A stretch of 59,870 nt of DNA. Source: a virus (lineage: Duplodnaviria > Caudoviricetes). Both the position numbers and the translations under genes were made by a program. The notes beneath the pieces are model-generated. The model was given only the letters and a program-made list of their open reading frames with translations. It made no database searches and was not told the origin of the DNA. Positions 11,139-59,870 of this stretch are shown here, piece by piece (within the stretch, counting starts at the first letter, position 1; the number at the start of each line of letters is the position of its first letter). The stretch is from the IMG/VR virus record IMGVR_UViG_3300009050_000003, positions 1 through 59,870 of that record. One strand, given 5' to 3'.

Positions 11139-11156
11139 ATACCTGACCTTTAAGAT
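11138..11156 (+). promoter_or_regulatory. Phage RNAP promoter-like repeat (late class)
   Basis: AATACCTGACCTTTAAGAT; core repeated at 11261 and 55305. Confidence 0.75.
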
Positions 11157-11257
11157 ACAATGCTATGAGACAGACTCTCAAGTCTGAATGTCTCTGCAGG
11201 GGTGTAGTTTATGTCACTGACACGGGGCTTTGCTTTACGCTGGTCGCTACACCCCAC
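11154..11257 (+). ncRNA. Candidate small structured RNA between two phage promoters
   Basis: Hairpin GAGACA-GACT-CTCA-AGTC..TGTCTC (11167-11194), then a 9-bp stem GGGGTGTAG (11199-11207)/CTACACCCC (11247-11255); no ORF. Confidence 0.45.
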
Positions 11258-11260
11258 TTT

Positions 11261-11278
11261 AATACCTGACCTTTAAGA
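11261..11278 (+). promoter_or_regulatory. Phage RNAP promoter-like repeat (late class), upstream of the portal/head operon
   Basis: AATACCTGACCTTTAAGA. Confidence 0.75.
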
Positions 11279-13305: not shown

Positions 13306-13381
13306 GCTGGCTTAGCTCAGTTGGTAGAGCTACTGATTTGTAATCAGTGGGTCGGGAGTTCGAGTCTCTCAGCCAGCACCA
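13306..13381 (+). tRNA. trnT: tRNA-Thr(TGT)
   Basis: Acceptor stem GCTGGCT/AGCCAGC, D arm GCTCAGTTGGTAGAGC, anticodon arm ACTGA-TTTGTAA-TCAGT, TTCGAG T-loop and an encoded CCA. Confidence 0.95.
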
Positions 13382-13412: not shown

Positions 13413-16400
13413 ATGACAACTATTAATGACAGAATTTTTGATCGAATTGTTGATCACATGGGAGATGTTCGCCTTTATGAAGAAGGTGTTCAACTTCAAA
13501 ATCGGCGAATTCTTCAACGGCATCGAAAGCAGTTGAAGGATCTGCTGTCGGAGGATATCAAAGCAGACATTAAACGGGAGATGGCGCGTTTTGAGAAGGA
13601 ACTCCTAGCCCACGGGGTTAGTAGCCTTAAAGAGTTCTCCACCGCACAGCTTGACTTTCATTCAGACAGTCTCTACAAAGAAGTACGTTCTTTTTATAAG
13701 GTTCAAAGACCTAGTACTAAAGAACTTCTGGCAGAGATTACTGGACCCAATATTAAGGGTGCAAAAGACATATCTACTAATATACGGAACATCTCTTCAG
13801 GAGAACTTACTCGTATTCAATCAAAGGTAAAGTATGGTCTTGCGCGTGGAATGTCACAAAAAGATATTATTGCTTCAGTTATGAAAACTACTAATCTAAC
13901 TGAAAATCAAGTTAAAACATTAACTCGTACTGCTATTACTAGTACGCAGTCTGCTGCTTTAAGGAATGTTGCTGCACGTAACAAAGGAATTGTTTCTGGT
14001 TTTATGTTTACAGCTATTCTAGACGCTCGTACAAGCCCTATATGTTCTTATCATAATGGTAAGATTTATGAGGTTGATGACCAGCGTTTTGTTCCCCCAT
14101 TGCACTGGAACTGCCGTTCTTCTATGGTACCAGTTATCAAGTCTAAAGATCAACTTCTTGAGACTGATGATGCAAGACTTAAAAAGCGTATAGTATCCAA
14201 TATGGATCCTCAACAGCTTAACGGCCTTCCACCTGTAACTCTTAGTTTTGGTGAATGGCTAAAAAGACAAACTATGGAAATTCAAGCTAAGATGCTTGGC
14301 TCTGAAGATGCTGCAAACATGTTCAGGCAAGGTAAACTAAAAGCTAGTGAATTCATTACTCCCAAAGGTAAGGCGCTTACAATTCAAGCCTTGCGGAATA
14401 GAGCAGCTAATGCTACTACTGTATTTAAACCTAAACAACAGGTTCGCAGTGAAGGTATTAGAGTTCAAGCAACGACACCTAATCAACTACTTAATAATCC
14501 TAAACACAAAGAAGACTTGCGTCAGCTTTTCTTGCTTGATGCGAGTGACTATAATCAATCTTTGTCTTTAACCGATTATAAAGGTACGTCCCTTGTTGGT
14601 AAACAAGAGTCTAGACGAAGGGTTGGTAATCAGTTTGATGAACGAAACTTTAGCGCAGATCCTATTACAGGTGAAGTGCGTAACAATAATATTTATGATC
14701 CTGATTTTAATCTGTATCAAGAACGTCTTGATTTTATGCGTAATTCTAAACTGCTTTCTTCAGAGCAAAAGAGCTTTATTGAAAATGCAGTAGCAGGTCT
14801 AGATGATAAGATTTCAGTAAATCAACAAACAGTTATGATTGAAAACCTTCGTGTTGTTTTCGAACGTTATGCTAAAGATAAAATGAAGTGGGGCGATCTT
14901 ACTTCTGTTATTCGTGCTGAGAATAGGTTTGCTGTACAGAACGTTTCACGACTTCTAGATACACGTTCTCGGCAACGTGTGGATACCTTCTCTAAGTATC
15001 TAACAGACTCTAAAACAGATATGCCTAAAATTCAGATTATGGGTAAATACTATGATCTTGATCAGCTAAACGAAATGTATCTAAAAGACACTCGTTTTGT
15101 AGACGCTTGGGAAAGTACTGCAGGTGTTAATCTTGCTAGGAAAGCTTTCTTTAAAGGCCGTGCGCCTATTATTAACTATTTTAGGCCAATTCTTGATCAG
15201 CTACCTGATCGTAAGACTTACATCGATCGTTTGTTATTAAGAGATACCTTGCTTTACAAGCGTTATAAACAATTTAAAAGCTTGTTTAAAGACAAAGAAC
15301 CAACTGATGACTGGTGGATTCGTAACACTGCAAGAGGTCGGGAAACTATTCGTAGTATTTTGGATTTAGAGTTCTTGAACCTTCGGAAGAAACCTACTAC
15401 TATTGTTATGAATGACAAAGGAACTAAAGCATTAACTAGCGCAGCTAAACTTGTTGCATCAGGAGACGCTACTGACTATGACACACTTGCTATTAACATC
15501 GGAAAGATGCTTAGTAAGGAGTTTGAAGACTTAATTCCATTTATGAAGAATGACTTAAAATCTTATCACAAAGAGGGATCTAAATTCCTTGACTTTATGA
15601 AAGATCAAGGTCTTATTCGTATTCAATTTCGAGGTAAAACTCGAAGAGGTGTTATTGATGTAGAAACAGGTCGTGCAGGAGGTGCATGGGGTGATACTAT
15701 TAGCCGAGAAGTTACAGTTATCAATAAAGATATGCTTAAGCTTCAAGAGGCAAGTCGCCGTATGACTATTGCTCGTCGTTTAGGAAACGTTTCAGATCGT
15801 GATCGTCTTTATGTTAAGGCAGGTAAGAAAACTTACTTTGATGCTAGAGGTAAAGACACGGGTGTTCCTATTGTGTCTCGTGATAAATTTCCTGATTATG
15901 ATCCTAAACAGATTGACTCTGAAATGGCTAATATGATGAATCATGTGATGAATGTCGAATATAGCGTAGACAAAGAGTTCTTTGGTTTTATGGATGACAT
16001 TGTTAGGTTTAGAGACCCTCGTGGTAACTCTAAATACTACGACAGTATCAATGAGCTGCGGCATGAAATTCTTAACCGTGGTGAAGCAGGTTATGGTCTT
16101 ATGGCTACAGCTAAATATCATGCTATTCGTGGCAAGAATTTTAAGACATATGCCTTTATCGATTCTCGTGGTCGTGTTTATCATCGTGGATATCTGACAC
16201 CGACAGGTGGTGAGCTAGTCCGTCCTTTCCTAAACTCAGGTAAAGCTGTTAATATCGATGCGGCTGCTGTGTATGAACTTCGTACTCAAATTGGTGCTTT
16301 AATAGGTCCAGGTACAGAGGCACTTACTCAAGCTGGACGTCAAGCAATCTTTGGTCGTAATAGAGAGAAGATTCTTGATTTAGGTAATCTGATGATGCAA

Positions 16401-17804
16401 ACAACTCAAAGAGATCGTAGACTTCGTGAGTTTCTTGAACACCCCCTTATTAGAGGCTTAGAAGGTCCAGAAGTACCAAAGATGGCTCGTATGGCACTTG
16501 AGTACGCTCGTATTCATAAGCATGTAGATGGTGATTTTAATAACCTTAAAAAGCTTAACACATACAAAACTCAGCTTATGATTGAGAACGATGCGTCGTC
16601 ATCAGGTGCTCAAATTATTGGATTGTCTACGGGCGATAGGGCTATTTCGGAAGCTTCTAATGTTCTTGCAACTACTCAGAAGAACCGTTTGTATGACCTT
16701 GTTGCTATGGATACTGTTAACGATCCAGAATTTTTGAAAATACCTGCCCTTAGAGATGCTAACCTAACTTGGGAAGATCTTGCTAAAGGTGCTAAGGCGC
16801 AAAACATGGTAAGCTTCTACGGTGCTGGCGATGCAACTAAAACCGCCAACGTAGCAGGTAAGCTGTCTAAAGTTCTTGAAGGTAAAGGTTATGTAACCGT
16901 TACTAAAGCTAATTTAAGTGAACAGCTTAGAATTATTGATGGTAAGATTAAAATTGCTCAAAAGCTTGATGCAGAAACTTCTGTAAAAGAGCTTCAGTCT
17001 TTCAGAGCAGAACTTGTTGATCTTATCAATAACAATGAACCTGCTGGTAGTACGCTTATGAAACAAGCTATTGAAGTTCATCCTGATACTGCTGCTTTTG
17101 TTGAAAAGCTTATGAACTCTCGAAAGGGCATTATTGGCCCTAAAGAGTTTGCAGAAGTATCTCGGATTATGTCTAAGAACCTTGCTGCTCGTGCGCCTGT
17201 TACAGATCAGTTTATTAACTTCTGGAAAGATGTGGCTAAGGCTTATGTAACAGAAACACAAAAGGTTGATATTCCGTGGGTTACATTCGACGGTAAAGTT
17301 ATGATGCAACGGTATAGACCCCGTTTGCAAGAACGTATTGAGTTTACTGACCCTGTTACGGGTCGTAAAGTATCTAACATCTATGAGGCAAAAGCTGAAG
17401 ACGGAAAACTTCTTGGGAAGTCTTCTTTGAATGACGCTCGTATTGGCCTAGGTGTTAATGGAAACCATAGTAACGATGCTGTTATTGTTAGACGATTCCA
17501 CTTGTGGGGACGTAAAAACGGTATTGGTACTGCAACAATTCATGACGCATTCTTCACTAATATTGGAGATGCTATGAAGGCAAAGGACGCTCTTAGAACC
17601 ATCTATGCAGATGCTCTTGGGGGCGATACTATAAGACGCACCTTGCAAGAAATGCGCAAGCAAGGCATGTCTTATAATACTTACTTAAAGCTTCTTGATG
17701 AAGCTAAGAGGAGAGGCTTAATTGACCCTCCAAATAAAATTACACGCCGTGACATTCTAGCTCCTATCGCTGATGGGTTTGACTGGTACGGTATTGGTCC
17801 ATAG
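13413..17804 (+). CDS. MuF (SPP1 gp7-like) minor head protein fused to a T7-like single-subunit RNA polymerase; putative virion RNAP
   Basis: N-terminal MuF motifs FTAILDARTSPIC...PPLHWNCRS (~14000-14125). C-terminal RNAP motifs DSRGRVY (~16161), ENDASSSGAQ (motif A), KAQNMVSFYG (motif B, Kx7YG), NGNHSNDA and TIHDAF (motif C). Located between portal and scaffold. Confidence 0.9.
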   Translation: MTTINDRIFDRIVDHMGDVRLYEEGVQLQNRRILQRHRKQLKDLLSEDIKADIKREMARFEKELLAHGVSSLKEFSTAQLDFHSDSLYKEVRSFYKVQRPSTKELLAEITGPNIKGAKDISTNIRNISSGELTRIQSKVKYGLARGMSQKDIIASVMKTTNLTENQVKTLTRTAITSTQSAALRNVAARNKGIVSGFMFTAILDARTSPICSYHNGKIYEVDDQRFVPPLHWNCRSSMVPVIKSKDQLLETDDARLKKRIVSNMDPQQLNGLPPVTLSFGEWLKRQTMEIQAKMLGSEDAANMFRQGKLKASEFITPKGKALTIQALRNRAANATTVFKPKQQVRSEGIRVQATTPNQLLNNPKHKEDLRQLFLLDASDYNQSLSLTDYKGTSLVGKQESRRRVGNQFDERNFSADPITGEVRNNNIYDPDFNLYQERLDFMRNSKLLSSEQKSFIENAVAGLDDKISVNQQTVMIENLRVVFERYAKDKMKWGDLTSVIRAENRFAVQNVSRLLDTRSRQRVDTFSKYLTDSKTDMPKIQIMGKYYDLDQLNEMYLKDTRFVDAWESTAGVNLARKAFFKGRAPIINYFRPILDQLPDRKTYIDRLLLRDTLLYKRYKQFKSLFKDKEPTDDWWIRNTARGRETIRSILDLEFLNLRKKPTTIVMNDKGTKALTSAAKLVASGDATDYDTLAINIGKMLSKEFEDLIPFMKNDLKSYHKEGSKFLDFMKDQGLIRIQFRGKTRRGVIDVETGRAGGAWGDTISREVTVINKDMLKLQEASRRMTIARRLGNVSDRDRLYVKAGKKTYFDARGKDTGVPIVSRDKFPDYDPKQIDSEMANMMNHVMNVEYSVDKEFFGFMDDIVRFRDPRGNSKYYDSINELRHEILNRGEAGYGLMATAKYHAIRGKNFKTYAFIDSRGRVYHRGYLTPTGGELVRPFLNSGKAVNIDAAAVYELRTQIGALIGPGTEALTQAGRQAIFGRNREKILDLGNLMMQTTQRDRRLREFLEHPLIRGLEGPEVPKMARMALEYARIHKHVDGDFNNLKKLNTYKTQLMIENDASSSGAQIIGLSTGDRAISEASNVLATTQKNRLYDLVAMDTVNDPEFLKIPALRDANLTWEDLAKGAKAQNMVSFYGAGDATKTANVAGKLSKVLEGKGYVTVTKANLSEQLRIIDGKIKIAQKLDAETSVKELQSFRAELVDLINNNEPAGSTLMKQAIEVHPDTAAFVEKLMNSRKGIIGPKEFAEVSRIMSKNLAARAPVTDQFINFWKDVAKAYVTETQKVDIPWVTFDGKVMMQRYRPRLQERIEFTDPVTGRKVSNIYEAKAEDGKLLGKSSLNDARIGLGVNGNHSNDAVIVRRFHLWGRKNGIGTATIHDAFFTNIGDAMKAKDALRTIYADALGGDTIRRTLQEMRKQGMSYNTYLKLLDEAKRRGLIDPPNKITRRDILAPIADGFDWYGIGP

Positions 17805-32320: not shown

Positions 32321-34492
32321 ATGTCTGAAGCCACAGTACTTGATAGATTAGTCGAAGATCTAGCGTATCGAATGAGCGTATTAGATAAACGTCAATCAGC
32401 AAGTTACTTGAATACACTAAGTCCGAGAGATATTATTGAGTTCTCATATACACATGTTCTCAAAGGTCTTGAAAGAAAAGCTACACTAGTGGAAGTAGCT
32501 GCTAGTATAGGTCGTAGACTTCGTCAGAAGCTTCGAATGAAACAAGACAGTATTCTTGATGTTCAAGGTGGTTGGTATGTTCTTATTTCATATATTGAGA
32601 CAGGAATTATCGGCTATCGAAAAAAGCATGTTTACAAAAATGGCAAAAAGTCTAAGCATCTTACGTTTCAGCTTTATGCAAGAGATTGGTCAGCCATTAA
32701 AGACATGATGGACCTAATTGATAACGAAAAGACAGACTTATTTCCAGTTAATACTCCTCCAAAACCGTGGACTAACAAATCTATTCACGAGGAAACTGGA
32801 ATTAGTATCATTAAGAAAGGTGACGAGAGTGCTTTAAAACACATGGAAAACTCAGACACAAGTTATATTGTAGATGTGCTTAATAAGCTATCTAATACAG
32901 CTTGGCGTATTAACGAAAGAGTTTTTGAAGTATACAAAGCTTGTATGACAATGAAAGAAAACCCGTTCAAATTCTCTAAAGAGATCGATCCTGTAAAACG
33001 GGCTTCCTTGATTATTGAAACAGAGGCTATCCAGCGGCTTGCAGAGAAGAACCTGAATAAGCCGTTTTATCATCTGTATAACCTTGACTTCCGAGGCCGT
33101 ATTTACCCTAACACTGCCTTCTTACACGAGCAGTCTAGTGACAATGCGAAAGGTATCCTTTTACTAGAGGAGCCTGTGCCATTAGGTCAGGACGGTTATT
33201 ACTGGTTGTCAGTCCATACTTCAAACATGTGGGGTAATGATAAAGTATCTTTAGACGATCGTGCAGAGTGGGTTCAAGAAAACTTAGACGAAATTCTAAG
33301 TTATGCAAATGACCCTCTTAACAATTTAGGGTGGATGAAAGCAGATAAACCATTTTGCTTTCTTGCTTGTTGTTGTGAAATTGATATGATTAGTAACTGG
33401 CATGGTGATGGTTTTAACACTGAAGACTTTCCAAGCTGCTTGCCAATCTACATCGATGGGTCTAACAACGGTGTTCAACATCTTGTAGCAATGTCTAAAG
33501 ATGATGAAGTTGCACCACTTGTAAACTTAACACCTAGTGACCTTCCTGGTGATGTATATATGTTTATTGCAGAACATGTATGGAAGCGTATCGAGCAAAT
33601 GTATAATGAGCTTGATAAAGACACCATCAATAAGTTTGACGATGTGTTTAACACAGCACTCAAGCTGCAACGAGAGTATGAGAATGCTCCTGATAAGTCT
33701 GAAAGAAAGAAACTTGCTTTTCAGGCAGTACAGACTTATCGAAATCATAACAGAGATCTTCGTGAGAAACTTTTTCCTGTATATTGGCATAATATTCAGG
33801 ATAAAAAAGTACAACGAAAAACTGTTAAACGCAATGTAATGACACTTGGCTACGGTGGCACAGCCTACGGCATGGGTCAACAAGTTAACGAAGATACAAG
33901 GGATATCAATGATTACTTGAGAGACAAAGAGCATTTGTGGGGTAATATGCTAGGTAAACTAGTATATGAAACCTGCTATGAAGAGCTTAAAGGACCAGCC
34001 CGTATGCTAAGGCTGTTCCAGACTCTTGCAGACAGAGCCAATGAGAAGGGGGTTTATCTCTCCTATATCACCCCTATCACAAACTTCCCTGTTGTGCAGG
34101 CGTACAAGACTGCGGCTACTAAGCGTACAGAACTTAAGTATGGTGACGACATCATGAAAGTTCGTATTCAAGTTTGGGAAGACTGTACTGTAAACGAGAG
34201 TAAACAAAGAACAGGTGCAGCACCAAATATTGTACATAGTCTTGACGCTGTTCATTTAACTATGGTTGTACATGATGCACCTTTTACTGTAACTGTTGTT
34301 CATGATTCTTTCGGATGTCACGCAGGAAACATGAACTATATGTTTCATCATGTTCGCAACAAGTTTGTAGAACTTTATGAATCTAACCCTCTAGAATGTA
34401 TTCTAGAACAACTTGAGTCCACAGACCTTATTCCAGAGAAAGGAAAACTTAATGTCAACTCTGTATACCTCTCAGACTTTGCGTTCGCTTAA
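32321..34492 (+). CDS. T7-like single-subunit DNA-directed RNA polymerase (723 aa)
   Basis: DFRGRIY, DGSNNGVQH (motif A), RKTVKRNVMTLGYG (motif B), APNIVHSLD, VHDSFG (motif C) and C-terminal SDFAFA. Confidence 0.95.
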   Translation: MSEATVLDRLVEDLAYRMSVLDKRQSASYLNTLSPRDIIEFSYTHVLKGLERKATLVEVAASIGRRLRQKLRMKQDSILDVQGGWYVLISYIETGIIGYRKKHVYKNGKKSKHLTFQLYARDWSAIKDMMDLIDNEKTDLFPVNTPPKPWTNKSIHEETGISIIKKGDESALKHMENSDTSYIVDVLNKLSNTAWRINERVFEVYKACMTMKENPFKFSKEIDPVKRASLIIETEAIQRLAEKNLNKPFYHLYNLDFRGRIYPNTAFLHEQSSDNAKGILLLEEPVPLGQDGYYWLSVHTSNMWGNDKVSLDDRAEWVQENLDEILSYANDPLNNLGWMKADKPFCFLACCCEIDMISNWHGDGFNTEDFPSCLPIYIDGSNNGVQHLVAMSKDDEVAPLVNLTPSDLPGDVYMFIAEHVWKRIEQMYNELDKDTINKFDDVFNTALKLQREYENAPDKSERKKLAFQAVQTYRNHNRDLREKLFPVYWHNIQDKKVQRKTVKRNVMTLGYGGTAYGMGQQVNEDTRDINDYLRDKEHLWGNMLGKLVYETCYEELKGPARMLRLFQTLADRANEKGVYLSYITPITNFPVVQAYKTAATKRTELKYGDDIMKVRIQVWEDCTVNESKQRTGAAPNIVHSLDAVHLTMVVHDAPFTVTVVHDSFGCHAGNMNYMFHHVRNKFVELYESNPLECILEQLESTDLIPEKGKLNVNSVYLSDFAFA

Positions 34493-54984: not shown

Positions 54985-54993
54985 GGCTCACTT

Positions 54994-55071
54994 TCTTGGT
55001 ATCTTTTCTGGGTTGTCCTTCGGGATGACTTGGGAAGGATACCAAGAGTTACCCCCTTTATTTTTTTTTTT
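54994..55071 (+). terminator. 25-bp UUCG hairpin plus downstream T-run (terminator or RNase III-like site)
   Basis: 54994-55018 pairs fully with 55023-55047 (7 G-U pairs); T-run at 55061-55071. Confidence 0.65.
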
Positions 55072-55085
55072 CGAAAGGAACCACT

Positions 55086-55280
55086 ATGATTACCATCTGG
55101 GTACTAGTTGGAATTCTGGTTACGAGTAACGATGTCTCAGCTACACCTCTGGGAACATTTACTAAGATGGATGATTGTTTTAGAGCAAGAGAGTATATCT
55201 GGAATGATCTCCAAAGGAAAGGTATTGACACGGATAACAAGCAGGTTATTTGTGTTAAGTCTAAATTGAGTGGAGTATAA
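55086..55280 (+). CDS. Small exported/membrane protein
   Basis: MITIWVLVGIL...FTKMDDCFRARE...ICVK. Confidence 0.6.
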   Translation: MITIWVLVGILVTSNDVSATPLGTFTKMDDCFRAREYIWNDLQRKGIDTDNKQVICVKSKLSGV

Positions 55281-55304
55281 ACTCCTTAAAGGTGTGTCTG
55301 AAAT

Positions 55305-55323
55305 AATACCTGACCTTTAAGAT
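55305..55323 (+). promoter_or_regulatory. Phage RNAP promoter-like repeat (late class), upstream of the structured RNA and terminase
   Basis: AATACCTGACCTTTAAGAT. Confidence 0.78.
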
Positions 55324-55508
55324 AGAGACACTCTATTCTAGACGACTTTGCTAAGGTTCTACCTAAGTGATACCCATGGGACTTCTACCGACATCTGAAA
55401 GAAGTATCCCTCATACCCCCCGCTGATGTCACACCAAGAAGCTTACTTTAGCTCCTTTAACGGGGGGTTAATGGGTATCACTTAGGTATCCTTAGAGTAA
55501 GTGTCTAG
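55321..55508 (+). ncRNA. Candidate structured ncRNA: three-way junction with complementary loops
   Basis: 18-bp perfect stem 55360-55377/55471-55488, extended by CTAAGG/CCTTAG and CTAGAC/GTCTAG. Two inner stems. GACATC (55390-55395) is complementary to GATGTC (55425-55430). Confidence 0.65.
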
Positions 55509-55663
55509 GGGGTCTTAAAGGGGCCAAATTGGTCTTATTATTTTTATTTATTATGTAATAAAAACAATGAGTTATTTAGGTACACTTTGGTAGTATTTTA
55601 TTGTTTTGATTAGTAAGAAAAAATTTCGTTTAAATAAACTTTCCCAAATTAAGGAGATTTAAT

Positions 55664-56032
55664 ATGGCTGGTCGAGGAGGAAACTCGAACCCTGTTAATC
55701 AGGAGGGCGGAAGAAAGCCTGGGGCTGGTCGTCCTAAAGGCTCTAAGAACATTAACTCAATGGCTTCTGTTAGGAAGCTTGAACAACTTGGTTTTGATCC
55801 CATCGAAATGATGGTTCAGAAGTATAATGAGATACAAGAGCTGCTAGACAGCGGTTCAGTGAAGATGGGCTCTGGTGCTTATGCTCAACTGACTGCTACA
55901 CAAGGCACTCTGATTAACAACCTTATGGCTTATGGTTATAAGAAGATCCCTGATAAACTAGAGACAGAGGTTACTGAAAAGAAACCTATCAACATTGTCT
56001 TAACCGCCCCTTCAAATAATAACGATAAATAG
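55664..56032 (+). CDS. terS: Terminase small subunit
   Basis: GGRKPGAGRPKGSKN, FDPIE and LMAYGYKK motifs; upstream of terL. Confidence 0.7.
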   Translation: MAGRGGNSNPVNQEGGRKPGAGRPKGSKNINSMASVRKLEQLGFDPIEMMVQKYNEIQELLDSGSVKMGSGAYAQLTATQGTLINNLMAYGYKKIPDKLETEVTEKKPINIVLTAPSNNNDK

Positions 56033-56042
56033 GGATAGAACT

Positions 56043-56330
56043 ATGGAAGAAGATCGTGGCTTATCTGCATGGCACCTCTCTAAGAGCGTTCCAATAACTT
56101 TCATTTTGGCTATTATTATGCAAACTTTTTCTCTTGTATGGTATGTGTCAAGTCTTGATAACAACATTAAAAACAACTCGCGGGATATTATCCGTCATGA
56201 AACTCGTATTGAGCAGCTAGAAAATACTATGCAAGCTCAAGCCTTGACTCTTGTGCGTATGGACGAGAACATTAAAGCTATTCGTCAACTTATGGAACAG
56301 CGTATGAATGAACCCCGCCCAAATCAGTAG
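56043..56330 (+). CDS. Single-TM coiled-coil protein
   Basis: WHLSKSVPI + TM segment + coiled coil ending RMDENIKAIR. Confidence 0.65.
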   Translation: MEEDRGLSAWHLSKSVPITFILAIIMQTFSLVWYVSSLDNNIKNNSRDIIRHETRIEQLENTMQAQALTLVRMDENIKAIRQLMEQRMNEPRPNQ

Positions 56331-56338
56331 TATTACAT

Positions 56339-57670
56339 ATGACAGAAATAAAATTACACGAAGGACAGTCTAAAGTTATTAAAGATCTGTTCGTTGACAA
56401 GTCTTGTCGTTATGCAGTTGTTAATGCATCTCGTGGTTTTGGTAAGTCCTATCTTGCTGCTACAACAGCGCTGATAGCAGTTCAAGAGCTTATTAACTTA
56501 CCTGCTGACGTACCTAACAAAAACGTTGCTCTTATTGCTCCTACTTACTCTCAAGCAGTTGATATTTACTATCCACTTATTGCTTGGCAGATGGGTATGG
56601 AAGACTTTGCAGACAAAGCATCTAAAGCTGCGGGTACCTTTTGGTTCCCTAATAACGTACAGCTTAAGCTTTGGTCTTATGAAGCATCTCAACGTATGCG
56701 TGGTACAGGTCAGTACTTTGTTGTTGCTGACGAGGTTACATCTTGGCATGGCGCAGGTATGAACCTTAAAGAGTCTTGGGAATCGATTATTCAACCATGT
56801 GTTGCTACACGTTGGTCAAGACAGAATGCTCGTACTTGGAATGCAAATCCTGGTCGTGCTTTAATTATTAGTACCCCAACAGGGTATGATTACTTTTATG
56901 AAATGTATAACCGTCAAGATACCGACGATGATTGGAAAAGCTATCACTTTACTTATAAAGATAGCCCTTATCTTGATGACGAAGAAATTGAACGTGTTAA
57001 GCTGACACTCGATCCGCTTAAGTTCGCCAGAGAGTATACTGCAAGCTTCGAAGACTCTGGTAATAATGTCTTCTATACATTTAATAGACAAGAACATATT
57101 GATAAAACTCTACCTTACTTTGAAGATAGTGAAGATGTCCATGTAGCTATCGACTTTAACGTTGGTATCATGGCCTCTGTAATCTTTGCTGTAAGAGGTA
57201 ATCAAATACATATTCTAGACGAAATGCAGGGACACCCTGACACAGAAACTCTTGCTGCTGCTTTGGCTACGCGCTTTAGGAATCATAAGATCATTGCGTA
57301 TCCTGACCCTGCAGGTAAAGCCCGTAAGAGTTCTGCTGCTGTAGGTGTTACAGACTTCAGTATTCTACAGTCTTATAATATTGCTACTAGGGCGCACTCT
57401 AAAGCGCCTCCGATTATTGATTCGGTAGCTGCTGTAAACAAGAAGTTTAAGAATGCTGCAGGTGATGTAGATATGTATATTCATCCAAAATGCGTTAATA
57501 CAATTAAATCTATAGAACGAACTCAGTGGGTTGAGAGCAATCCTAACTCCGCTACTATTGACAAAAAGGAAGGTGTTGAACACTGGACTGATGCCCTTCG
57601 GTATGCCGTTGAATATCTGTATCCTATTAGAGCAGGTTCTAAGGTTGTCACAAAAGGATTTAACTTCTAA
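56339..57670 (+). CDS. terL: Terminase large subunit
   Basis: SRGFGKSY, IAPTYSQA, RMRG, VADE, ISTPTG, FAREY.ASF, IDFNVG and HWTDALRY motifs. Confidence 0.95.
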   Translation: MTEIKLHEGQSKVIKDLFVDKSCRYAVVNASRGFGKSYLAATTALIAVQELINLPADVPNKNVALIAPTYSQAVDIYYPLIAWQMGMEDFADKASKAAGTFWFPNNVQLKLWSYEASQRMRGTGQYFVVADEVTSWHGAGMNLKESWESIIQPCVATRWSRQNARTWNANPGRALIISTPTGYDYFYEMYNRQDTDDDWKSYHFTYKDSPYLDDEEIERVKLTLDPLKFAREYTASFEDSGNNVFYTFNRQEHIDKTLPYFEDSEDVHVAIDFNVGIMASVIFAVRGNQIHILDEMQGHPDTETLAAALATRFRNHKIIAYPDPAGKARKSSAAVGVTDFSILQSYNIATRAHSKAPPIIDSVAAVNKKFKNAAGDVDMYIHPKCVNTIKSIERTQWVESNPNSATIDKKEGVEHWTDALRYAVEYLYPIRAGSKVVTKGFNF

Positions 57671-58684: not shown

Positions 58685-59870
58685 ATGACTACTTATAAAA
58701 TTACTCCTGATTCTAACACCTTCTCTATTTCTCTTTCTCGCACTGGCGGTCAGGGCGCTAAAGGTGATAGCATCAGTAGCGTCTATATTGACGAAAATAA
58801 CGAACTTGTTGCTGAGATTTCTAACTCGGCTGGTGATGTAATTAAAACAGAACAACTTGGTTCTATTGACACTATCGTTGCACAAGCCTCTACAGATGCT
58901 ATTGGCGATCTTATTACTACAGGTAACAACTACCTGATTAATGTTGCTGCTAACGATGAAGGCTCTTATGACTTTACTGTAGAGGCTTATCAAGACGGTA
59001 CTATTCCTAGCAGTCTTGTACAACGTACTGAAGACGGTTATATCCGTGCTAATGCTTTTAAGCTAGAAGCATCTAACATTGAATTCCATGATGTTGTTAA
59101 AGAAGGTGAACTAGGTTGGTCTTCTGAGCGTAATGCTATGATCATGGGCTTGACCGATGATGGTAAGCATACTTATGTTAACCAACAACAAGTAGCTGTT
59201 GTATACAACCCCTATGAGGCTCTTCCTCAAGGTACTGTTGTGTATGTTGAAGGCTCTTATATCGGTGATAGTGAAAATTTCCCAACTGTTGCTAAAGCAA
59301 GTAACAATCAAGTGGGTACATCGACTGCTGTCTTGGGTGTTGTTATGTACGACATTCCTGCCGCAGAAGGTCCAGTATTTCATAAAGGCTATGTTTGTAC
59401 TCACGGTATCGTAGAGTATGTTGATACCTCTGCTTATGTAGCGGGTACTAGGGTATGGCTTGGTGTAGACGGTAATCTTGTTGGTGTAGAGCCACAAACT
59501 CCTGCTGCACGTACTATGATCGGTTATGTTGTTAAACAAGATGCTATAGAAGGATCTATCTATGTTCAAGTTCAGCCTGGTTTTGAGCTTTATGAACTTA
59601 ATGATGTAAGAATTTATAACCCGCAAGACGGTGACTTTATTGCTTGGAACGCCTCTAACTCACAGTGGGAAAATATTAACCTTAACCTTACTTTTGCTTC
59701 TGATGCAGAACTCCAAGCCCTTAATGCAAGTATTCAAGCTTCTTTGGCGAATAAGTCAGATAATACTCACACACACTTGCTTAATGATCTTTCTGACGTT
59801 AACATCTCTGCTAAGACAACCTCGTTTGTTATTACTTATGATGCTGTATCTCAGAAGTGGATTTCTCGTA
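58685..59870 (+). CDS. Fibre/decoration protein, 3'-truncated by the window edge, not in the ORF track
   Basis: Frame open from ATG 58685 (MTTYKITPDSN...) to the end of the window. Contains GTRVWLGVDG, LYELNDV...GDFIAWNASNSQW and HTHLLNDLSDV fibre-type repeats. Confidence 0.75.
   Translation, partial: MTTYKITPDSNTFSISLSRTGGQGAKGDSISSVYIDENNELVAEISNSAGDVIKTEQLGSIDTIVAQASTDAIGDLITTGNNYLINVAANDEGSYDFTVEAYQDGTIPSSLVQRTEDGYIRANAFKLEASNIEFHDVVKEGELGWSSERNAMIMGLTDDGKHTYVNQQQVAVVYNPYEALPQGTVVYVEGSYIGDSENFPTVAKASNNQVGTSTAVLGVVMYDIPAAEGPVFHKGYVCTHGIVEYVDTSAYVAGTRVWLGVDGNLVGVEPQTPAARTMIGYVVKQDAIEGSIYVQVQPGFELYELNDVRIYNPQDGDFIAWNASNSQWENINLNLTFASDAELQALNASIQASLANKSDNTHTHLLNDLSDVNISAKTTSFVITYDAVSQKWISR

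What the first reader, a model, noticed from the sequence alone, without database searches (positions are those of the whole stretch)
55321..55508. ~170-190-nt three-way-junction RNA with complementary loops, upstream of terminase (pRNA-like architecture)
Seen: directly after a late promoter motif there is a short hairpin (55322-55336), then a long basal helix (18 bp perfect plus extensions, 55338-55508). The helix closes two inner stems: GGGACTTCT/AGAAGTATCCC and CCCCCCG/CGGGGGG. The loop of the first carries GACATC and the second arm carries GATGTC, an exact 6-bp complement. There is no ORF. Known: phi29 pRNA is a ~174-nt three-way-junction RNA that oligomerises through complementary loops on the packaging motor. 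Inference: this is either an intramolecular kissing pseudoknot or an oligomerising RNA tied to packaging or head assembly, which would be unexpected in a terminase-type phage.
Basis: partly seen in the sequence, partly recalled or inferred. Interest (0 to 1): 0.8.

Follow-up and report, generated by a model that had tools for sequence, protein, structure and literature searches.

The report
New pseudoknotted leader RNA in marine phages
The flagged stretch is a real, conserved, folded RNA of about 165-190 bases, made from a phage promoter just ahead of the DNA-packaging genes; it matches no catalogued RNA family, some relatives have lost it, and its job is unknown.

Summary
Window 55321-55509 folds far better than shuffles (z -6.1). 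Homologues occur in 39 of 80 related viral contigs and 34 further fetched entries, some re-fetches of the same contigs.

Covariation supports every helix: 98% of 1017 cells pair and 26 of 42 pairs show double changes. The 6-bp loop to internal-loop pairing is fully Watson-Crick in 36 of 36 distinct cores, in 7 sequence versions. G-U pairs (63) far outnumber A-C (4), so selection acts on the + strand RNA.

The element starts about 6 nt after the predicted start of a promoter motif present 6-8 times in the window. The phage encodes a T7-like RNA polymerase. No Rfam family matches.

The conserved core is two hairpins plus the pseudoknot. The basal helix varies from absent to 48 bp. One lineage keeps the promoter but has deleted the core, so the RNA is accessory. 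It is not a phi29 pRNA family member.

Best reading: an accessory promoter-proximal leader or non-coding RNA with an intramolecular pseudoknot. Intermolecular pairing is not excluded.

The parts
55302..55322 (+). Phage promoter-like motif AATAATACCTGACCTTTAAGA. The predicted transcription start is G55321.
   Evidence: 6 copies with 3 or fewer mismatches, all on the + strand, against 0 expected. A looser scan gives 8 copies. TACCTGAC.TTTAA is invariant in 27 of 27 aligned relatives directly upstream of the RNA. The phage encodes a T7-like RNA polymerase. The start site is inferred by aligning the motif to the T7 promoter consensus, which is recalled and comes from no call.
55322..55336 (+). Lineage-specific 5' hairpin ATAGAG-ACA-CTCTAT.
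   Evidence: Read. Present only in the window and its near-identical contigs. Other lineages have a different inserted hairpin (L014, L032, L025) or none.
55337..55377 (+). P1, 5' strand. Outer pairs 55337-55350, CTAAGG 55351-55356, internal loop TTC 55357-55359, 18-nt core 55360-55377.
   Evidence: Fold; self-complement match. In one search the two modelled P1 helices are 98.1% and 100% paired, and 13 of their 21 pairs show double changes.
55378..55410 (+). P2 hairpin: GGGA/TCCC and CTTCT/AGAAG with a TA bulge. The 13-nt loop ACC-GACATC-TGAA lies at 55387-55399.
   Evidence: helices 3 and 4: 7 of 8 pairs show double changes. The loop flanks AYY and TGRA are conserved.
55390..55395 (+). Pseudoknot 5' strand, GACATC, in the P2 loop.
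   Evidence: Pairs with 55425-55430. 100% paired and 5 of 6 pairs covary in 25 distinct sequences. 36 of 36 distinct cores are fully Watson-Crick, in 7 sequence versions.
55416..55467 (+). P3 arm: P3a CCCCCCG (55416-55422) with CGGGGGG (55461-55467); linker CT; pseudoknot 3' strand GATGTC (55425-55430); variable distal hairpin P3b (about 55436-55457).
   Evidence: P3a is almost invariant in sequence: 4 of 7 pairs never vary and 98.3% of cells pair. P3b differs in sequence and length between relatives.
55471..55509 (+). P1, 3' strand.
   Evidence: The covariance-model match spans 55340-55507 at 125.7 bits, E 8e-31.
55520..55550 (+). Weak terminator-like hairpin GGGGCCAAATTGGTCTT followed by a T-rich run.
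   Evidence: Consensus scan. Comparable A/T-rich hairpins with U runs follow the RNA in L021, L051 and L059, but not in L050 or L019.
55510..55663 (+). A+T-rich spacer (about 28% G+C) before the next gene.
   Evidence: In relatives that carry an extra ORF after the RNA, the equivalent spacer sits directly before the small basic-protein gene, so it belongs to that gene and not to the RNA.
55664..56032 (+). 122-aa basic protein with a GRPKG motif, in the position of a small terminase subunit. That identity is not confirmed.
   Evidence: Conserved in relatives at 61-74% identity. No Pfam or NCBIfam family; PHROG of unknown function; low-confidence helical model, pLDDT 62.
56339..57670 (+). Large terminase subunit.
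   Evidence: Pfam Terminase_6N, E 6.8e-10. 68% identity to the terminase of roseophage DSS3_PM1.

Best explanation
The stretch encodes an accessory structured RNA module.

Transcription. It is transcribed on the + strand from a phage-specific promoter, probably by the phage's own T7-like RNA polymerase. It begins about 6 nt after the start site and forms the first 165-190 nt of the transcript that runs toward the packaging genes.

Fold. The RNA closes on itself. A basal helix P1, of variable length, carries two side-by-side arms. The 13-nt loop of P2 pairs through 6 Watson-Crick pairs with the strand just above the invariant C6G:CG6 helix P3a. I read this pairing as an intramolecular H-type pseudoknot that locks P2 and P3 together.

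Action. It most likely acts at the RNA level on the transcript that carries it, as a compact 5'-terminal domain that sets the stability, processing or expression of the downstream message. Where P1 is long, RNase III could cut in P1 and release the domain as a discrete small RNA. The sequence-invariant P3a helix and the P2 loop flanks may be a protein-binding surface.

Shown and inferred. Shown: the fold, its conservation, the strand, the position and the dispensability. Inferred: the start site, the intramolecular nature of the pairing and the function.
For: Fold and conservation:
- Fold energy z -6.1, 0 of 200 shuffles as good.
- Covariance-model matches at E 1e-17 to 1e-46 in the window and 39 of 80 contigs fetched by terminase similarity.
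- Matches in 34 of 79 entries fetched by a core pattern, some of them re-fetches of the same contigs.
- 98.0% of 1017 cells paired. 26 of 42 pairs have double changes. 0 of 500 shuffles reach this. Slid controls pair at 40-55%.
- Pseudoknot 6 of 6 Watson-Crick in 36 of 36 distinct cores, in 7 versions.

RNA level and strand:
- G-U/U-G 63 cells against A-C/C-A 4 cells.
- No conserved ORF; the longest stop-free stretches are 24-50 aa and vary between relatives.

Promoter:
- Motif repeated 6-8 times, all on the + strand, and invariant directly upstream in 27 of 27 aligned relatives.
- RNA_pol PF00940, E 4e-84.

Leader role:
- In L050, L053, L019 and L020 an ORF starts 11-14 nt after the element with no terminator between.

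Module and accessory character:
- Single copy in the window and in a 60.8-kb relative.
- P1 ranges from none (L180) to 48 bp (L166), while the P2-pseudoknot-P3 core is kept.
- L034, L060 and L062 keep the promoter, about 25 nt of P1 and the spacer but lack the core.

Intramolecular geometry (inference):
- P2 has about 10 layers. P3a has 7 pairs plus a 2-nt linker.
- A 3-nt loop segment precedes the 6-bp pairing, which fits classical H-type pseudoknot dimensions (recalled rule).
- Both pairing strands are mostly unpaired in the nested ensemble, 0.85-0.98 and 0.23-0.89.
- Insertions in relatives fall in junction strands, bulges and distal hairpins, never between the stems and the pairing strands.
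Against: - No expression data. The one metatranscriptome found held contigs over the downstream genes only, which allows no conclusion.
- A simple stabilising hairpin or RNase III site would not need a covarying pseudoknot and an invariant helix.
- The L180 lineage has no long P1, so RNase III release cannot be general.
- In most relatives the RNA is followed by a 96-215 nt A+T-rich spacer. That spacer stays with the next gene and carries terminator-like and promoter-like features. This favours a stand-alone RNA gene over a leader.
- In two other phage-associated RNAs, ROOL and GOLLD, covarying loop-to-junction pairings once read as tertiary proved to be intermolecular (passages read in 10.1101/2024.12.08.627333).
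Confidence: 0.45

Rival explanations
1. It is a stand-alone, trans-acting small RNA gene: promoter, RNA of about 165-190 nt, weak terminator. The two complementary hexamers pair between molecules and build dimers or rings. In the strongest form this is a pRNA-like part of the packaging machine or an RNA-only assembly.
For: - The architecture has the same elements as phi29 pRNA: an end-to-end helix, a three-way junction, one hairpin loop and one internal-loop strand that are complementary, and a distal hairpin. The pRNA features come from passages of PMC4201828 and from recall.
- Terminator-like hairpins with U runs follow the RNA in the window, L021, L051 and L059.
- The next gene keeps its own A+T-rich upstream region.
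- Precedent: covarying loop-to-junction pairings in ROOL and GOLLD are intermolecular.
- The element always lies upstream of the packaging gene block.
Against: - No match to any Rfam model at the element, pRNA included.
- The phage has a terminase-type motor.
- The core is deleted in L034, L060 and L062 with the packaging genes intact.
- It is absent from an 88%-complete relative's record and from DSS3_PM1, DSS3_VP1 and EBPR siphovirus 1 in the stretches searched.
- No terminator follows the RNA in L050 or L019.
- The arm order is the reverse of pRNA (recalled).
- The stem and linker lengths suit pairing within one molecule (inference).
Confidence: 0.22
2. It is a riboswitch-type sensor. The junction and pseudoknot form a ligand pocket that controls termination or translation of the downstream genes.
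For: - A three-way junction with two parallel arms tied by a loop contact is a common aptamer plan (recalled).
- It lies in a 5' leader, and a terminator-like hairpin follows in some members.
Against: - The junction strands vary between relatives: J1/2 is UAU, UAC, UUU, CUA or CCA, and J2/3 also varies.
- No alternative pairing or expression platform is conserved.
- The distance to the next gene ranges from 11 to 305 nt.
- P1 is up to 48 bp, too stable to switch.
- No Rfam riboswitch match.
Confidence: 0.08
3. It is a self-cleaving ribozyme that trims the 5' leader.
For: - Compact pseudoknotted fold with a few invariant unpaired nucleotides, the AYY and UGRA loop flanks.
- Phages carry several ribozyme classes (recalled).
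Against: - No match to any Rfam ribozyme family.
- No recognisable catalytic core.
- Nothing in the data points to a cleavage site.
Confidence: 0.04
4. It is a DNA-level element: a cruciform, pac site, replication origin or miniature inverted-repeat mobile element. The RNA fold would then be incidental.
For: - Long inverted repeat; the - strand also folds well (z -8.7).
- Position next to the packaging genes and an A+T-rich stretch.
- A 48-bp perfect inverted repeat in L166.
Against: - 63 G-U cells against 4 A-C cells. Those G-U pairs would be mismatches in DNA and on the other strand.
- The covarying pseudoknot has no DNA-level rationale.
- Single copy per genome.
- The A+T-rich stretch separates from the element in relatives.
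- The element is deleted in a lineage that keeps the promoter and spacer.
Confidence: 0.03

Closest known systems
phi29-family prohead/packaging RNA (pRNA)
   Same: - Similar size class. pRNA is transcribed as 174 nt, with a functional domain of about 120 nt (PMC4201828 passages).
- The 5' and 3' ends pair in a long helix, with a three-way junction above it.
- One hairpin loop is complementary to a single-stranded segment that lies between two helices of the other arm, and a distal hairpin follows.
- It is encoded by a phage.
   Different: - No sequence or model similarity.
- The order of the two arms is reversed (recalled).
- The pairing is 6 bp here, against 2-5 bp in pRNAs.
- The phage uses a terminase-type packaging enzyme.
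- The RNA is dispensable in a sister lineage.
- The basal helix is not conserved in length.
Three-way-junction 'tuning-fork' RNA domains with a loop-to-loop or loop-to-internal-loop contact (purine and THF-I riboswitch aptamers; recalled)
   Same: - Closing helix P1, with two roughly parallel arms tied by Watson-Crick pairs between a hairpin loop and a strand of the other arm.
- Location in a 5' leader.
   Different: - Much longer P1.
- Variable junction strands, so no obvious ligand pocket.
- No conserved expression platform.
- No Rfam match.
5'-terminal stem-loops and RNase III processing hairpins of T7-group phage transcripts (recalled)
   Same: - Sits directly after a phage RNA polymerase promoter.
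- In most members it has a duplex of more than 20 bp interrupted by a small internal loop.
- It would protect or process the message.
   Different: - Branched and pseudoknotted, with an invariant G-C helix.
- The long duplex is missing in one lineage.
- Only one of the 6-8 promoter copies in the genome carries it.
ROOL and GOLLD, phage-associated RNAs that assemble without protein (10.1101/2024.12.08.627333, passages read)
   Same: - Phage-encoded, function unknown.
- Covarying pairing between a hairpin loop and a joining strand.
   Different: - Those RNAs are several times larger.
- No sequence or model similarity.
- Oligomerisation is untested here.

Membership tests
phi29-type pRNA | Match to the curated covariance model of the family in Rfam | tested here: not met
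   There is no pRNA row among 4 weak matches at E up to 10 in 55200-55700. There is none among 9 matches at E up to 5 in 7 relatives. The gathering-threshold scan of the whole window found only a tRNA.
phi29-type pRNA | End-to-end helix, three-way junction, and two complementary single-stranded segments on different arms | tested here: met
   Consensus fold and pair counts. The arm order is reversed relative to pRNA (recalled).
phi29-type pRNA | The complementary segments pair between molecules to form a ring on the portal | not testable with these tools
   Covariation cannot tell cis from trans pairing. The stem and linker lengths are compatible with cis pairing (inference).
phi29-type pRNA | Belongs to a phage with a phi29-type packaging ATPase and no terminase nuclease | tested here: not met
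   The 443-aa protein at 56339-57670 matches Terminase_6N. It is 68% identical to the large terminase of DSS3_PM1.
phi29-type pRNA | Indispensable for packaging | tested here: inconclusive
   L034, L060 and L062 lack the core but keep the promoter and the packaging genes. The 88%-complete record G005 has none. All of these are uncultured fragments or incomplete records, so a copy elsewhere cannot be fully excluded.
Riboswitch aptamer (three-way-junction type) | Highly conserved unpaired nucleotides lining a pocket at the junction | tested here: not met
   J1/2, J2/3 and J3/1 vary between relatives. The best-conserved unpaired bases are the P2 loop flanks.
Riboswitch aptamer (three-way-junction type) | Conserved expression platform with mutually exclusive pairing | tested here: inconclusive
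   None was seen. The downstream distance is 11-305 nt and the downstream sequence is not conserved with the element. No formal search for alternative pairings was made.
RNase III processing or stabiliser hairpins of T7-group transcripts | Duplex of about two helical turns, often with an internal loop, in a phage polymerase transcript | tested here: inconclusive
   Met in the window and most relatives: P1 is about 25-30 bp with a 3x1 loop, and 48 bp in L166. Not met in L180, L179 and L203. Cleavage itself cannot be tested here.
Miniature inverted-repeat mobile elements (Correia-like) | Many dispersed copies per genome | tested here: not met
   One copy in the 59.9-kb window and one in a 60.8-kb relative.

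The most novel reading that the evidence does not exclude
The covarying 6-bp pairing may be intermolecular. It would be a second, independently evolved oligomerising RNA in a tailed phage, this time one that packages DNA with a terminase. It could act as a scaffold or decoy during late infection.
Probability: 0.15. Interest if true: 0.85.

Novelty: new variant of a known kind. Interest (0 to 1): 0.6.

Why it matters
Structured non-coding RNAs of phages are poorly charted, and few have a tertiary contact proven by covariation. This one is small enough for direct biophysics. It has seven natural compensatory versions of its pseudoknot, natural variants with no basal helix and with a 48-bp basal helix, and a natural deletion lineage. 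Together these make a ready-made mutant series.

It belongs to an uncultured marine or estuarine group related to the Naomviridae, whose transcription by a phage-encoded T7-like polymerase has not been described in the papers I could search. The Naomviridae paper holds no occurrence of 'RNA polymerase'.

If the pairing proves intermolecular, it would extend pRNA-like self-assembly beyond phi29-like phages. If it is a leader, it offers a compact RNA module that works with a single-subunit polymerase.

Tried and rejected
- **Expression.** One metatranscriptome run, X1, shared 14% of sampled words. Its 5 contigs lie on 55923-57345 and 59296-59540, none on the RNA. These are low-depth contigs, so no conclusion either way.
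- **Close DNA relatives among named phages.** None.
- **DSS3_PM1, DSS3_VP1 and EBPR siphovirus 1.** No model match, even with filters off. The promoter-proximal stretch of DSS3_PM1 does not fold better than shuffles, z -0.9.
- **Replication-origin idea** (promoter plus A+T-rich stretch). Weakened, because the A+T-rich stretch stays with the small basic-protein gene when an extra ORF separates it from the RNA.
- **Mobile-element idea.** Rejected: single copy and the G-U bias.
- **Ro/Y-RNA idea.** No TROVE-type or other RNA-binding family among the 36 window ORFs scanned against Pfam.
- **Identity of the 122-aa protein as small terminase.** Not established. The model was too weak for a fold search, which I did not run.
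- **First collection scan for the core pattern.** It carried one N too many and returned 10 unrelated stretches. The corrected pattern reported 92 stretches, of which 80 were listed and 79 were new entries. 45 of those 79 are not this RNA. Nine of the 45 were read and show an unrelated conserved stretch.
- **Earlier notes of this scan.** Nothing on this genome or this sequence.

Full report
**What is there**

The window is a 59,870-base uncultured virus record, with its ORFs of 150 aa or more almost all on the + strand. Its large terminase (56339-57670, Pfam Terminase_6N) is 68% identical to that of roseophages DSS3_PM1 and DSS3_VP1, family Naomviridae.

- A small hairpin at 55322-55336.
- A basal helix with an 18-bp perfect core, 55360-55377 with 55471-55488 (also found). 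It extends outward to 55337/55509.
- An arm GGGACTTCT/AGAAGTATCCC whose 13-nt loop holds GACATC (55390-55395).
- An arm closed by CCCCCCG/CGGGGGG (55416-55422 with 55461-55467), with GATGTC (55425-55430) two bases above it.

No ORF of 30 aa or more lies between 55281 and 55663 on the + strand. The + strand folds at -89.2 kcal/mol against -59.4 +/- 4.9 for shuffles (z -6.1, 0 of 200 as good). The - strand also folds well (z -8.7), as any long inverted repeat must.

**Promoter**

The 21 bases before the element recur in the window 6 times with 3 or fewer mismatches. All copies are on the + strand, none is expected by chance, and 0 of 100 shuffles match. A looser scan gives 8 sites: 11141, 11264, 29762, 34694, 34721, 38094, 44610 and 55308. 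The six stricter copies lie just upstream of the next long ORFs.

The phage encodes a T7-like single-subunit RNA polymerase (32321-34492, PF00940, E 4e-84). It also has a 1463-aa head protein with an RNA-polymerase-like C-terminal part (PHROGs). Aligning the motif to the T7 promoter consensus, which I recall and did not compute, places the start at G55321. 'Late' is not shown, because the same motif precedes replication genes.

**Relatives and structure**

Terminase similarity brought in 80 of 188 related viral contigs. A covariance model built on 16 of them matched the + strand of the window and of 39 of the 80 contigs, at E 1e-17 to 1e-46. It did not match DSS3_PM1 or DSS3_VP1.

The element lies 993-3334 nt upstream of the terminase gene. 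37 of the 41 contigs without a match hold less than 2500 nt upstream, so they are uninformative. In 27 of 27 aligned sequences the promoter core TACCTGAC.TTTAA is invariant directly upstream. In most of the distinct sequences P1 starts 6 nt after the predicted start.

On 29 matches, 25 of them distinct, I counted pairs for a structure that includes the pseudoknot:
- 98.0% of 1017 cells pair, against 86.5% in shuffles and 40-55% when partners are slid.
- 26 of 42 pairs carry double changes, and 0 of 500 shuffles reach any of the measures.
- The pseudoknot helix is 100% paired, and 5 of its 6 pairs covary.

Over all matches collected later, 36 of 36 distinct core sequences have six Watson-Crick pairs. 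There are seven versions:

| Loop strand | Partner strand |
|---|---|
| GACAUC | GAUGUC |
| GGUACU | AGUACC |
| GAUACU | AGUAUC |
| GAUAUC | GAUAUC |
| GGUAUC | GAUACC |
| AACAUC | GAUGUU |
| GACAGU | ACUGUC |

One 5'-truncated match could not be scored. G-U/U-G cells number 63 and A-C/C-A cells 4, so selection acts on the + strand RNA and not on DNA or the opposite strand. There is no conserved reading frame.

**Wider family and the conserved core**

A scan of the viral collection for the core pattern (after a mistyped first try) gave 79 new entries. 34 of them match the model, and some are re-fetches of contigs already held. The other 45 do not match. Nine of those 45 were read and show an unrelated conserved stretch.

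The new members come from the same phage group, with the same small basic protein and the same terminase downstream. They differ in the basal helix:
- L166 has a 48-bp perfect helix (z -11.5).
- L193 has about 21 bp.
- L179, L180 and L203 match only model positions 38-129 and have no convincing basal helix.

Their upstream motif differs from that of the window but is similar among them (read).

The conserved unit is therefore P2, P3a and the pairing between them:
- P2 is 3 + 5-6 pairs, with loop AYY-N6-UGRA.
- P3a is almost invariant in sequence.
- Insertions occur at the 5' end, in J1/2, in the P2 bulge, in J2/3 and in P3b.
- No insertion falls between a stem and a pairing strand.

**Dispensability**

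- L034, L060 and L062 retain a promoter copy, GAATAA, about 25 nt resembling the P1 5' strand and the A+T-rich spacer. They lack about 120 nt of core.
- The 16-kb record holding L062 has no copy elsewhere.
- G005, an 88%-complete 63.5-kb record of a more distant relative, has none.
- G004, an 89%-complete 60.8-kb record, has exactly one.

**Context**

After the RNA comes one of two arrangements:
- A 96-215 nt A+T-rich spacer and then a conserved 115-144 aa basic protein with a GRPKG motif. This protein sits in the small-terminase position, but that identity is unconfirmed.
- Other ORFs first, such as a 247-aa protein of unknown function that starts 11-60 nt after the RNA.

When such an ORF intervenes, the A+T-rich stretch stays directly before the basic-protein gene. 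It therefore belongs to that gene. A weak terminator-like hairpin follows the RNA in the window and in some relatives, but not in L050 or L019.

**Known families**

- The Rfam gathering scan of the window found only tRNA-Thr.
- Permissive scans of the element and of seven relatives gave nothing at the element.
- Literature searches found no description of it.
- The Naomviridae paper does not contain 'RNA polymerase' or 'noncoding'.

**Interpretation**

The RNA is real, conserved, accessory and promoter-proximal. I favour an intramolecular pseudoknot for four reasons:
- P2 (about 10 layers) and P3a plus linker (7 + 2) are matched in height.
- A 3-nt segment precedes a 6-bp pairing, as in classical H-type knots (recalled rule).
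- Both pairing strands are free in the nested ensemble.
- Peripheral insertions avoid the core.

Covariation cannot exclude pairing between molecules, and in ROOL and GOLLD such pairings proved to be intermolecular.

As to function, the data fit best a leader or non-coding module that acts on the fate of its own transcript or binds a protein. A pRNA-type essential motor part is unlikely, given the deletion lineage, the terminase and the lack of homology. No expression data could be obtained.

Noticed in passing
window 11141, 11264, 29762, 34694, 34721, 38094, 44610, 55308: A family of promoter-like sites, ATACCTGACCTTWAAGA and two weaker variants, all on the + strand before gene blocks. One pair is in tandem, 27 nt apart (34694 and 34721). 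They probably form the regulon of the phage's T7-like polymerase.
   Followed up: partly
window 11154-11262: The 109 nt between two promoter copies fold into two hairpin domains (z -2.85; 1 of 200 shuffles as good). This could be a second promoter-proximal leader RNA before the portal gene. Conservation was not checked.
   Followed up: partly
window 13413-17804: A 1463-aa protein joins a Mu F-like head-morphogenesis domain to an RNA-polymerase-like C-terminal part. It could be a virion-carried polymerase, in addition to the T7-like enzyme at 32321-34492.
   Followed up: no
window 54985-55075: A long G+C-containing hairpin followed by a run of 13 T, read. It looks like a strong intrinsic terminator closing the upstream gene block. 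DSS3_PM1 has an equivalent hairpin plus a T run at L007 1940-2045.
   Followed up: no
window 55664-56032; L041, L053 and L078 upstream regions: The small basic protein in the small-terminase position carries an invariant GRPKG motif, which resembles an AT-hook (recalled name). It is preceded by an A+T-rich region. In several relatives that region holds the palindrome TTTCAATTGAAA, which could be its binding or pac site.
   Followed up: partly
L110 about 190-420; L102 about 1850-2350: An ORF with a GIY-YIG-like start (YIG.T...R...H, judged by eye and not tested) lies between the RNA position and the basic-protein gene. It may be a homing endonuclease insertion.
   Followed up: no
L021 1274-1467: Two tRNA genes lie about 460 nt upstream of the RNA in this relative. 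The window has a single tRNA-Thr at 13306-13381.
   Followed up: no
L007 2050-2170; L008 1850-1970: DSS3_PM1 and DSS3_VP1 carry two copies of a related motif, ATAGGGTRCGTTAAAGA, at the equivalent position. This suggests a homologous polymerase-promoter system with a different specificity in the cultured Naomviridae.
   Followed up: partly
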